A DNA stretch of 64,000 bases from Escherichia phage PinkRuby. A program made the translations under genes and the position numbers. This document shows, one piece after another, positions 36,755 to 37,065 of the stretch. The notes below the pieces were generated by a model. It was not told the origin of the DNA and made no database searches. It saw only the letters and a list, made by a program, of their open reading frames with translations. The stretch is from sequence record PP925839.1. One strand, given 5' to 3'. Position 1 is the stretch's first letter, and each line of letters opens with the position of its first letter.

Positions 36755-36802
36755 AAGCCTCGCGGCAACCTTGTCGGGGTTCCACCTGCTAAGGCAAGTG
36801 TT

Positions 36803-36897
36803 TGTACGAAACGCCGGGATTCGAACCCGGTTATTAAGCAGTTGACGCTACTCAATATTTTTAAAAGGCCATATCTCGACCATATCCGAACGTTCCG
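36803..36897 (-). ncRNA. Possible tRNA-like stable RNA (T4 species 1/2-type); boundaries approximate
   Basis: Minus strand has acceptor-like CGGAACG pairing with CGUUUCG and a canonical T-arm CCGGG-UUCGAAU-CCCGG, but no CCA and no clean anticodon arm; lies between terminator and tRNA-Arg. Confidence 0.35.
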
Positions 36898-37065
36898 TCA
36901 AAAACGCTACTCGGCTTACGGCAAAGATATTTCCTCGAATCGATAATTCGGTGCGCCGTTTCTGCTGTGATGTAAGAGGGCATCAACAAATCATAAAGAT
37001 TTATTAACACAATTCCTTACTCAGGGAACATCAGTCCGACGACTTACCGGTAGCGATCCGGTTTC

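What the first reader, a model, noticed from the sequence alone, without database searches (positions are those of the whole stretch)
36758..37065. About 300 nt of non-coding DNA downstream of tRNA-Arg with a tRNA-like element
No credible ORF, yet the minus strand contains a canonical T-arm (CCGGG-UUCGAAU-CCCGG) plus an acceptor-like stem (36803-36897) without CCA or a clear anticodon arm. T4 encodes two stable small RNAs of unknown function next to its tRNAs; this is the likely counterpart.
Basis: partly seen in the sequence, partly recalled or inferred. Interest (0 to 1): 0.45.

Follow-up and report, generated by a model that had tools for sequence, protein, structure and literature searches.

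The report
T4-type stable RNAs rnaD and rnaC
This non-coding stretch of a T4-like phage encodes the counterparts of phage T4's two long-known stable small RNAs (species 2/rnaD and species 1/rnaC), so the element is already known, but comparison across phage genera shows both are conserved structured RNAs whose function has never been found.

Summary
On the minus strand, window 37069-36805 is collinear with the annotated rnaD (species 2) and rnaC (species 1) genes of phage T4. rnaC is 137/139 identical to T4. A 47-nt trailer that is nearly invariant across genera and an intrinsic terminator follow. ARAGORN calls no tRNA there, and no Rfam family reaches its threshold.

The details need correcting. 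The interval holds two RNAs, not one. The true 5' strand of rnaC's acceptor-like stem is 36942-36936, not 36897-36891. A 116-aa ORF lies between tRNA-Arg and rnaD.

Comparative analysis used 29 distinct rnaC sequences from eight or more Tevenvirinae genus-level groups. It supports a four-way junction:
- a 7-bp acceptor stem with tandem U.U;
- a roughly 70-nt long arm;
- a 10-bp arm;
- a T-arm.

98.5% of cells are paired, and 25 of 43 pairs show compensatory changes. The two 6-nt hairpin loops (UUGACG and CGUCAA) are mutually complementary and switch together in Klebsiella phages.

rnaD is also a conserved structured RNA and also sits in tRNA arrays. Function remains unknown. The best guess is that both are cut out by the tRNA-processing machinery and that rnaC is a non-decoding tRNA mimic. 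The element is already known and of moderate interest.

The parts
36950..37069 (-). rnaD orthologue (T4 species 2 RNA), about 118-120 nt. The boundaries are transferred from the T4 annotation and are good to about 2 nt. The 5' end overlaps the TAA stop codon of the upstream ORF.
   Evidence: Alignment to T4 L001:2498-2615; model R2 scores 142.6 bits; RNAfold z=-2.82.
37046..37062 (-). rnaD 5' hairpin, ACCGG-AUCGCUA-CCGGU.
   Evidence: All 5 pairs covary across genera and are 100% paired. The same hairpin was flagged as a + strand terminator-like site.
37022..37045 (-). rnaD conserved 5' core, AAGUCGUCGG...GUUCCCUG. It forms the 5' side of the basal stem and the internal loops.
   Evidence: Invariant in 17 sequences and largely retained in the Karamvirus, PM2 and Klebsiella-phage homologs.
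36971..37021 (-). rnaD hypervariable apical hairpin. It exists in three unrelated sequence types among relatives.
   Evidence: Alignments A4 and A5.
36950..36970 (-). rnaD conserved 3' core, UCACAGCAGAAACGGCGCACC. It forms the 3' side of the basal stem.
36805..36943 (-). rnaC orthologue (T4 species 1 RNA), 139 nt, a tRNA-shaped four-way junction.
   Evidence: 137/139 identical to T4 rnaC; model R1 scores 159.3 bits; z=-4.55; structure counts.
36936..36942 (-). rnaC acceptor-like stem, 5' strand CGAUUCG. It pairs with 36813-36807, with tandem U.U in the middle.
   Evidence: 99.3% of cells paired; A-U changes to G-C in 10 sequences; in PM2 both U.U positions become U-A.
36866..36935 (-). rnaC long irregular arm (about 70 nt) in the D-arm position. 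Its apical loop UUGACG is at 36901-36896.
   Evidence: Helices 2-6 are 94-100% paired with many double changes; coordinates.
36832..36857 (-). rnaC 10-bp arm in the anticodon position, with the 6-nt loop CGUCAA at 36847-36842. This loop is the reverse complement of the long-arm loop (proposed kissing interaction).
   Evidence: 8 of 9 counted stem pairs show double changes. The loop-loop helix is 99.3-99.4% paired, against 17-51% when slid, with an A-U to G-C switch in the Klebsiella-phage clade.
36814..36830 (-). rnaC T-arm, CCGGG-UUCGAAU-CCCGG.
   Evidence: 100% paired; the middle pair switches between G-C and U-A (12 vs 16 sequences); coordinates.
36803..36813 (-). rnaC acceptor-like 3' strand CGUUUCG (36813-36807) followed by U-ACA in place of N-CCA.
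   Evidence: PM2 and the Klebsiella-phage homologs encode U-CCA at this position.
36758..36804 (-). Conserved 3' trailer. Its core CACUUGCCUUAGCAGGUGGAACCCCGACAAGGUU lies at 36800-36767. Its role is unknown and it is inherited together with rnaD.
   Evidence: The core is nearly invariant across Tequatrovirus, Gaprivervirus and Dhakavirus. In JS98 and CUA3, which lack rnaC, it joins directly to rnaD. The 20-mer is exact in every locus in which rnaD was found and matches none of the Karamvirus, Kanagawavirus, Gelderlandvirus, Mosugukvirus (PM2) or Klebsiella-phage loci. It has no special folding stability on its own (z=-0.33).
36727..36754 (-). Intrinsic terminator that ends the tRNA/rnaD/rnaC transcription unit.
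   Evidence: 10-bp stem with 7 G-C pairs, followed by a T run. An identical copy lies at 36172-36199.

Best explanation
The interval encodes the orthologues of phage T4 rnaD (species 2 RNA, 37069-36950) and rnaC (species 1 RNA, 36943-36805) on the minus strand. A conserved 47-nt trailer and an intrinsic terminator follow. I put this identification at about 0.97.

Maturation is inferred, at about 0.7. Both RNAs are co-transcribed with the tRNA array and cut out by the host tRNA-processing machinery. rnaC carries a 7-bp acceptor-like stem stacked on a canonical T-arm, which is the minimal RNase P and 3'-trimming substrate. RNase P cleavage at its 5' side would also define the rnaD 3' end. The rnaD 5' end lies just after the preceding tRNA, or here just after the ORF.

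The rnaC fold is a compact four-way junction. The D-arm is replaced by a long arm of about 70 nt, and the anticodon arm by a 10-bp arm. The two 6-nt loops are complementary and probably kiss. The molecule therefore cannot decode and has no CCA end in this phage.

The function is a hypothesis, at about 0.3. rnaC would be a stable, non-decoding tRNA mimic that occupies a tRNA-binding protein late in infection. The target could be a host tRNA-targeting defence nuclease or a tRNA maturation or translation factor. rnaD would be a separate structured RNA with an invariant core and a replaceable apical hairpin that acts on another partner.
For: Identity:
- BLASTN hit to T4 with rnaC and rnaD annotated under the match.
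- Collinear alignment and coordinate transfer.
- rnaC is 137/139 identical to T4. The RB7 record annotates both genes.

Expression in T4:
- RNAC and RNAD were classified as late RNAs and validated by northern blot (PMC9697503).
- TATAAATA late-promoter motifs lie upstream of the tRNA array at 38801 and 39109 on the minus strand.
- The terminator is at 36754-36727.

rnaC structure:
- RNAalifold on unbiased MAFFT alignments gives 22 of 46 and 23 of 38 pairs with compensatory changes.
- Pair counts: 98.2-98.5% of cells paired, against 36-51% when slid; 0 of 500 shuffles reach the observed values.
- The loop-loop helix is 99.3% paired, with UUGACG/CGUCAA changing to UUGGCG/CGCCAA in the Klebsiella-phage clade. 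Its duplex energy is -5.5 to -7.6 kcal/mol.
- Length is held at 141-144 nt in 29 distinct sequences although the arm sequences are unrelated.

Constraint:
- 490 of 745 phage records are at least 99% identical in rnaC. Only 5 of 734 are that similar in rnaD.

Tie to tRNA processing:
- Every homolog lies in the tRNA region on the tRNA strand, often within about 5 nt of neighbouring tRNAs, for example Trp | rnaC | Gly.
- rnaD follows tRNA-Arg or tRNA-Asn within a few nt in most genomes examined.
- RNase P is known to process tRNA-like non-tRNA substrates (PMC11143913).

Anti-defence context:
- Phage tRNA loci counter tRNA-cleaving defences (PMC10264068, PMC11555353, PMC11464382, PMC13096335).
- A convergent SNP in rnaD arose in three lines of a T4-like phage adapting to a semi-permissive host (PMC12685909).
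Against: - No experiment or computation here addresses function. Published reviews and omics papers up to 2025 call the roles unknown.
- The kissing interaction rests on perfect complementarity plus a single independent compensatory event (one clade, 5 sequences). Its steric feasibility within one molecule was not modelled. The short arm is tethered by only 1 nt to the T-stem, so the long arm would have to bend back. An intermolecular interaction is equally compatible with the data.
- The T-loop departs from the tRNA consensus in Kanagawavirus IME523 (UGCAUGC) and in PM2 (UUCGGUC). A canonical tRNA elbow is therefore not strictly required.
- Dhakavirus JS98 and phage CUA3 lack rnaC entirely, so it is dispensable for the T4-like lifestyle.
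- The mature ends are transferred from the T4 annotation, not measured. That annotation starts one nt upstream of the first base pair, which does not match a textbook RNase P cut.
- The position of the SNP in the adaptation paper is ambiguous.
Confidence: 0.55

Rival explanations
1. The RNAs are cis-acting processing or stability modules of the tRNA operon. They would be structured spacers that direct RNase E or RNase P cuts, or protect neighbouring tRNAs and the transcript's 3' end, with no function in trans.
For: They are always embedded in tRNA arrays on the same strand, often within about 5 nt of tRNAs. rnaD usually abuts the 3' end of a tRNA. The trailer sits just before the terminator.
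Against: The neighbours differ between genera: rnaC sits after rnaD, between Trp and Gly, before Trp, or 65 nt after Met. No particular tRNA therefore depends on it. A spacer role does not explain the near-invariant loop sequences, the 141-144 nt length conservation, or the 99% identity or better across 490 genomes. In T4 both persist as discrete late RNAs.
Confidence: 0.15
2. One or both are trans-acting base-pairing regulatory sRNAs that target host or phage mRNAs. rnaD is the more likely candidate, acting through its invariant single-stranded motifs.
For: rnaD has invariant internal-loop motifs (GACUGAUGUUCCCUG and UCACAGCAGAAACGG) flanking a replaceable hairpin. A convergent adaptive SNP arose in rnaD. 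The trailer is weakly complementary to the rnaD 5' core: -34.6 kcal/mol against -26.4 +/- 3.6 for shuffles, p about 0.02.
Against: No target was identified. The conserved loops of rnaC are complementary to each other rather than free. [quoted passage not shown] The trailer complementarity is marginal, and the full-length MFE structure does not use it.
Confidence: 0.15
They would form dimers or rings that act as a scaffold.
For: There are two complementary 6-nt hairpin loops on arms of very different length. Within one molecule the short arm is tethered by only 1 nt to the T-stem, which makes an intramolecular kiss geometrically demanding.
Against: No evidence of oligomers exists. T4 DNA packaging is not known to need RNA (established knowledge, from memory). 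Strict length conservation fits a defined monomer fold equally well.
Confidence: 0.07
4. The interval holds a decaying tRNA pseudogene plus junk spacer, or small protein-coding ORFs as annotated in many GenBank records.
For: Many records label the region 'hypothetical protein' or tRNA-Lys/Met/Phe/OTHER. Rfam gives a weak tRNA-Sec match.
Against: Conservation is extreme and compensatory covariation spans eight or more genus-level groups. The ORFs have non-ATG starts, are not conserved, and are incompatible with the tRNA-flanked homologs. ARAGORN and the Rfam tRNA model both reject the region.
Confidence: 0.03

Closest known systems
Phage T4 rnaC (species 1 RNA, 139 nt) and rnaD (species 2 RNA, 118 nt)
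   Same: Direct orthologues. The order (rnaD, 6-nt spacer, rnaC, trailer, terminator), the strand and the position at the distal end of the tRNA cluster are the same. rnaC is 137/139 identical, and the whole segment is 95.7% identical.
   Different: In T4 rnaD starts 1 nt after the CCA of tRNA-Arg. Here a 116-aa ORF (phrog_3355) is inserted exactly at that junction, as in KarlGJung and IME340. The apical hairpin of rnaD differs slightly from T4's.
Canonical tRNA (Rfam RF00005)
   Same: A 7-bp terminal stem abuts a 5-bp T-stem with a UUCGAAU loop. The gene sits in a tRNA array, so the same processing enzymes are expected. Some homologs encode N73-CCA.
   Different: There is no D-arm or D-loop. 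The arm at the anticodon position has 10 bp and a 6-nt loop. A 70-nt arm is inserted, the acceptor stem contains tandem U.U, and the tail is U-ACA rather than CCA. ARAGORN and RF00005 do not detect it.
tRNA mimics that are RNase P substrates or bind tRNA-binding proteins: the tmRNA tRNA-like domain, bacterial YrlA (Y RNA-like), and plant-virus tRNA-like structures
   Same: The concept is shared: an acceptor/T-arm module grafted onto a non-decoding RNA, with RNase P processing of non-tRNA substrates (PMC11143913).
   Different: There is no sequence or covariance-model similarity. ARAGORN finds no tmRNA, and the Rfam YrlA match (17.7 bits) falls on the real tRNAs, not on this element. The topology also differs, because here the RNA's own 5' and 3' ends form the acceptor stem.
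   Same: A phage-encoded RNA of about 120-170 nt with two hairpin loops that are complementary to each other.
   Different: In pRNA the pairing is 4 nt and intermolecular, and it serves the packaging motor (from memory). Here the pairing is 6 nt, whether it is intra- or intermolecular is unknown, no link to packaging exists, and the RNAs are not homologous.

Membership tests
T4 rnaC (species 1 RNA) family | Sequence and structure homology to the annotated T4 rnaC | tested here: met
   137/139 identical. Model R1 scores 159.3 bits, E about 3e-31, with a single copy in the window.
T4 rnaC (species 1 RNA) family | Located in the phage tRNA gene region, on the same strand as the tRNAs | tested here: met
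   Window. The same holds in all 31 homologous loci.
T4 rnaC (species 1 RNA) family | Accumulates as a discrete stable RNA of about 140 nt in infected cells | not testable with these tools
   Shown for T4 only, by northern blot (PMC9697503). The 58-nt sense oligo listed for the probe template is identical to window 36943-36886.
T4 rnaD (species 2 RNA) family | Sequence and structure homology to the annotated T4 rnaD, lying immediately upstream of rnaC | tested here: met
   Alignment. Model R2 scores 142.6 bits. A 6-nt spacer separates it from rnaC.
T4 rnaD (species 2 RNA) family | Starts directly after the 3' end of tRNA-Arg | tested here: not met
   The 351-bp ORF 37066-37416 intervenes. The same arrangement occurs in KarlGJung and IME340. 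This is a difference in context, not in the RNA itself.
tRNA | Cloverleaf recognised by tRNA detectors | tested here: not met
   ARAGORN finds none in 36700-37100. RF00005 gives no hit even at E<=10. The only match is tRNA-Sec at 16.6 bits against a cutoff of 47.
tRNA | 7-bp acceptor stem contiguous with a 5-bp T-stem and a T-loop UUCRANY | tested here: met
   36942-36936 pairs with 36813-36807, and the T-arm is at 36830-36814. The acceptor stem contains two U.U mismatches.
tRNA | D-arm, a 5-bp anticodon stem with a 7-nt loop, and a 3' CCA | tested here: not met
   A 70-nt arm and a 10-bp/6-nt-loop arm take their place, and the tail is UACA.
tmRNA | tRNA-like domain plus a tag reading frame | tested here: not met
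   ARAGORN reports no tmRNA, and Rfam has no tmRNA match.
Any curated Rfam 15 family | Score at or above the gathering threshold | tested here: not met
   Only the 11 tRNAs pass in the window. All matches within the interval are below threshold, with E>0.7.

The most novel reading that the evidence does not exclude
rnaC would be a previously unrecognised class of phage tRNA mimic, restricted to Tevenvirinae. A covarying loop-loop kiss would lock it into a non-decoding shape, the tRNA machinery would cut it out of tRNA arrays, and it would act as a decoy or inhibitor of a host tRNA-targeting immune nuclease or another tRNA-binding factor. rnaD (invariant core plus swappable hairpin) would be a second anti-defence or host-takeover RNA from the same locus.
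Probability: 0.2. Interest if true: 0.8.

Novelty: already known. Interest (0 to 1): 0.4.

Why it matters
The genes themselves are textbook T4 features, so finding them in a T4-like genome is ordinary. What remains open is their function, which has been unknown for about 50 years. The comparative results here make that question more approachable:
- Both RNAs are ancient components of tRNA arrays, conserved across many Tevenvirinae genera.
- rnaC has a well-supported tRNA-like four-way-junction fold with a testable loop-loop interaction.
- rnaC, rnaD and the trailer are separable modules.
- Neither RNA has an Rfam family, and both are widely mis-annotated as hypothetical proteins or odd tRNAs.

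Phage tRNA loci are now known to counter tRNA-cleaving defence systems, so a conserved non-decoding tRNA mimic at that locus is a reasonable anti-defence candidate.

Tried and rejected
- Rfam at gathering and at permissive thresholds found nothing but tRNAs. The tRNA-Sec, isrK and anti-hemB matches are sub-threshold noise.
- Pattern scans:
  - The looser IMG/VR scan added five loci (L044, L046, L049-L051) that the covariance model rejected.
  - The metagenome scan added mostly duplicates and one GC-rich chance match, L030.
  - The bacterial/archaeal genome scan returned only ordinary tRNA-Cys genes at 18-27 bits, so no cellular homolog was found.
- The trailer was considered as a structured element. 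It has no excess stability on its own (z=-0.33). No diverged copy was found in the other genera, even allowing up to 5 mismatches.
- Trailer-to-rnaD pairing is only marginally better than shuffles (p about 0.02), so it is kept as a lead only.
- A DNA-level reading of TTGACG as a -35 box was rejected, because the two loops change together in the Klebsiella-phage clade.
- Literature:
  - No functional study of rnaC or rnaD was found.
  - The 'rnaC' hit in the RNAylation preprint is a grant name.
  - The SegB/Septu paper does not mention these RNAs.
  - Miller et al. 2003 (PMC150520) is not held.
- Pfam and PHROGs on the flanking ORFs gave only families of unknown function.
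Full report
**Context**

The window comes from a T4-like phage (Tequatrovirus). The best match to the interval is Escherichia phage vB_EcoM-G157lw at 98.4% identity. ARAGORN and Rfam find 11 tRNA genes on the minus strand between 38455 and 37435, in the order Gln, Leu, Gly, Pro, Ser, Thr, Met, Tyr, Asn, His, Arg(UCU). Downstream on the same strand lie a 116-aa ORF (37416-37066, phrog_3355, function unknown), then the finding interval, then a strong intrinsic terminator at 36754-36727. T4 late-promoter motifs (TATAAATA) lie upstream of the tRNA array at 38801 and 39109. Another follows the terminator at 36724-36717.

**Checking the observation**

The T-arm CCGGG-UUCGAAU-CCCGG is real, at 36830-36814 on the minus strand. 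No CCA follows the terminal stem; the tail is U-ACA. No tRNA or tmRNA is called in the interval. No Rfam family reaches its threshold. The only tRNA-like signal is a tRNA-Sec match of 16.6 bits (cutoff 47, E=3.6) at 36806-36898.

The ORFs overlapping the interval are 49, 53 and 81 aa, with GTG or TTG starts. They are not credible, for the reasons given under Structure below.

It is an alternative pairing that happens to be possible in this sequence. It is the pairing used by the weak tRNA-Sec match and by the 'tRNA-Met' annotation in phage PG7. Across 24 homologs it is only 85% paired and shows less covariation than shuffled controls.

**Identity**

BLASTN against annotated phage genomes finds 804 records. 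In T4 (MT984581) the match, at 95.7% identity, lies under the features rnaD ('small, stable RNA; species 2 RNA') and rnaC ('species 1 RNA'). The pairwise alignment is collinear from the first base of rnaD to the terminator.

Transferring the T4 coordinates gives rnaD = 37069-36950 and rnaC = 36943-36805, with a 6-nt spacer between them. rnaC is 137/139 identical to T4. The RB7 record annotates the same pair.

In T4, rnaD begins 1 nt after the CCA of tRNA-Arg. In the window, and in KarlGJung and IME340, the phrog_3355 ORF is inserted exactly at that junction, and its TAA stop overlaps the start of rnaD.

**What the literature says**

[quoted passage not shown] A 2022 dual-omics study classifies both as late RNAs and validates this with a northern blot assay (PMC9697503). 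The 58-nt sense oligo listed for its RNAC probe template is identical to window 36943-36886.

A 2025 evolution study found one convergent SNP, in rnaD, in three lines of a T4-like phage adapting to a semi-permissive E. coli strain. The position it describes is ambiguous (PMC12685909). I found no functional study.

**Structure of rnaC**

Alone, the 139-nt RNA folds far better than shuffles (-50.2 kcal/mol, z=-4.55). I collected homologs from three sources:
- annotated phages;
- IMG/VR pattern scans;
- one metagenome scan.

A covariance model (R1) rejected the chance matches. The result is 29 distinct sequences from these groups: Tequatrovirus, Gaprivervirus, Karamvirus, Kanagawavirus, Gelderlandvirus, Mosugukvirus, Moonvirus, the Klebsiella Marfa/F48 group, Edwardsiella PEi20 and Citrobacter Ursula.

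RNAalifold on unbiased MAFFT alignments predicts the same four-way junction, with 22 of 46 and 23 of 38 pairs carrying compensatory changes. In explicit counts:
- 98.2-98.5% of cells form standard pairs, against 36-51% when partners are slid by 1-3 columns;
- 25 of 43 pairs have double changes;
- none of 500 shuffles reaches any observed measure.

The parts in the window are:
- an acceptor-like stem, CGAUUCG (36942-36936) with CGUUUCG (36813-36807), containing a conserved tandem U.U that becomes two U-A pairs in PM2;
- a long irregular arm, 36935-36866;
- an A/U-rich linker, 36865-36858;
- a 10-bp arm, 36857-36832;
- the T-arm, 36830-36814.

Total length is 141-144 nt in all 29 sequences, although the long arm is unalignable in sequence between some genera.

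**A loop-loop interaction**

The apical loop of the long arm is UUGACG (36901-36896). The loop of the 10-bp arm is CGUCAA (36847-36842), its exact reverse complement. Both loops are almost invariant while their stems vary freely. In the Klebsiella-phage clade both change together, to UUGGCG and CGCCAA. PM2 keeps 4 of the 6 pairs.

Counted as a helix, the interaction is 99.3-99.4% paired, against 17-51% when slid. Its duplex energy is -5.5 to -7.6 kcal/mol.

The support is perfect complementarity plus one independent compensatory event, so it is good but not conclusive. Whether the kiss is intramolecular, which requires the long arm to bend back, or intermolecular cannot be decided here. A DNA-level reading of TTGACG as a -35 hexamer does not explain the coordinated change.

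**Structure and distribution of rnaD**

Seventeen distinct close homologs share four features:
- an invariant 5' part: the hairpin at 37062-37046, then AAGUCGUCGG...GUUCCCUG;
- an invariant 3' part: UCACAGCAGAAACGGCGCACC, 36970-36950;
- a basal stem formed between those two parts;
- an apical hairpin (37021-36971) that exists in three unrelated sequence types.

A model built from these sequences (R2) finds weaker but significant homologs (25-34 bits, E from about 2e-6 to 4e-4) in Karamvirus, Kanagawavirus, PM2 and the Klebsiella phages. They lie in unannotated gaps of the tRNA arrays; where tRNA positions were determined here they follow tRNA-Asn at distances of 2 to about 300 nt.

On the cross-genus alignment 96% of cells pair, against 30-49% when slid. 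Fourteen of 23 pairs have double changes, including all five pairs of the 5' hairpin. That alignment is fitted to the model, so these counts lean towards the structure.

rnaD diverges much faster than rnaC. Only 5 of 734 records are at least 99% identical in rnaD, against 490 of 745 for rnaC.

**Modularity and the trailer**

In Dhakavirus JS98 and in CUA3 the rnaC cassette is absent. There rnaD is joined by 'GAA' to the same trailer and terminator. In Karamvirus, Gelderlandvirus and Citrobacter phage Ursula, rnaC directly follows tRNA-Trp (in Karamvirus and Gelderlandvirus it sits between tRNA-Trp and tRNA-Gly), far from the rnaD-like element. In EcS1-like phages it precedes tRNA-Trp, and in the Klebsiella phages it lies 65 nt after a tRNA-Met.

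The core of the 47-nt trailer (36804-36758) is nearly invariant across the three genera aligned (Tequatrovirus, Gaprivervirus, Dhakavirus). Its 20-mer is exact in every locus in which rnaD was found and absent elsewhere, even allowing 5 mismatches. It has no excess folding stability (z=-0.33). It is only marginally complementary to the rnaD 5' core (p about 0.02). Its role is unexplained.

**Origin**

A scan of one genome for each of 185,579 bacterial and archaeal species with the rnaC pattern returned only ordinary tRNA-Cys(GCA) genes, at 18-27 bits. At this sensitivity rnaC is therefore phage-restricted. Its acceptor/T half, with U73 and a CCNGG T-stem, is at most tRNA-Cys-like.

**Mechanism**

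Shown here: both are conserved, structured, non-coding RNAs encoded in tRNA arrays, and rnaC carries the acceptor/T-arm module.

Inferred, at about 0.7: they are co-transcribed with the tRNAs and released by RNase P, RNase E and 3' exonucleases. RNase P is documented to cut tRNA-like non-tRNA substrates (PMC11143913).

Hypothesis, at about 0.3: rnaC is a stable non-decoding tRNA mimic that titrates a tRNA-binding protein. The phage tRNA locus is now known to counter tRNA-cleaving defences (PMC10264068, PMC11555353, PMC11464382, PMC13096335), and a T6-family tRNA locus is amplified under such pressure.

Points against the hypothesis:
- there is no functional data;
- the T-loop is non-canonical in IME523 and PM2;
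- rnaC is absent from JS98.

The rivals are cis-acting processing modules, trans-acting base-pairing sRNAs, pRNA-like oligomers, and pseudogene or ORF readings. They are scored in the report sections.

**Verdict**

It is already known as T4 rnaC/rnaD. The added value is the corrected anatomy, the covariation-supported folds, the candidate kissing loop, the wider distribution, and the separable modules. The interest score of 0.4 reflects a known object with a long-standing unknown function that is now easier to test.

Noticed in passing
window 37591-37704 (-): A 114-nt non-tRNA spacer lies between tRNA-Asn and tRNA-His. It folds better than shuffles (z=-2.98), matches no Rfam family, and matches neither the rnaC nor the rnaD model. 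It is also present in phage KarlGJung. In other genera an rnaD-like RNA occupies the position just after tRNA-Asn, so this could be another small RNA.
   Followed up: partly
L003:529-667, L004:634-774, L005:500-639 (Karamvirus tRNA arrays): A conserved non-tRNA segment of about 140 nt follows the rnaD-like element. It has terminal inverted repeats (AAGTTTACTTTCG...CGAAAGTAAATTT) and a compensatory change from GCGTT/AACGC to GTGTT/AACAC between phages. It is probably a third structured RNA in these arrays.
   Followed up: no
window 37066-37416 (-): A 116-aa ORF (phrog_3355, function unknown) is inserted exactly at the tRNA-Arg/rnaD junction in this phage, KarlGJung and IME340. It is absent from T4 and RB7. 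The same phrog occurs in the Karamvirus tRNA region.
   Followed up: partly
window 35518-36081 and 36207-36680 (-); terminators 36172-36199 and 36727-36754: Two paralogous ORFs (both phrog_2280, function unknown) lie in tandem. One copy of an identical 28-nt intrinsic terminator precedes the upstream ORF, and the other lies between the two ORFs. This looks like a tandem duplication of a gene-plus-terminator cassette.
   Followed up: partly
GenBank records matched (e.g. G29, G4507, G9062, PG7, Q7622, KKP_3262): rnaC and rnaD are widely mis-annotated as one to three 'hypothetical proteins', or as tRNA-Lys, tRNA-Met, tRNA-Phe or tRNA-OTHER. Only a few records (T4, RB7, RB27, Kha5h, ATK47/48) label them correctly. 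Neither RNA has an Rfam family.
   Followed up: yes
window 37784-37870 (-): The phage tRNA-Tyr scores only 30.2 bits against the Rfam tRNA model (cutoff 29), far below the other ten tRNAs (59-74 bits). A 2026 paper reports that the Septu defence cleaves the variable loop of T6 tRNA-Tyr, so this atypical tRNA may be worth a look.
   Followed up: no
L019, L020, L021, L027, L037 (Klebsiella phages) and L007 (PM2): In these lineages the rnaC homolog encodes U-CCA after the acceptor stem. T4-type and Karamvirus-type copies encode U-ACA instead. This raises the question of whether some family members carry a genuine tRNA-like 3' end.
   Followed up: partly
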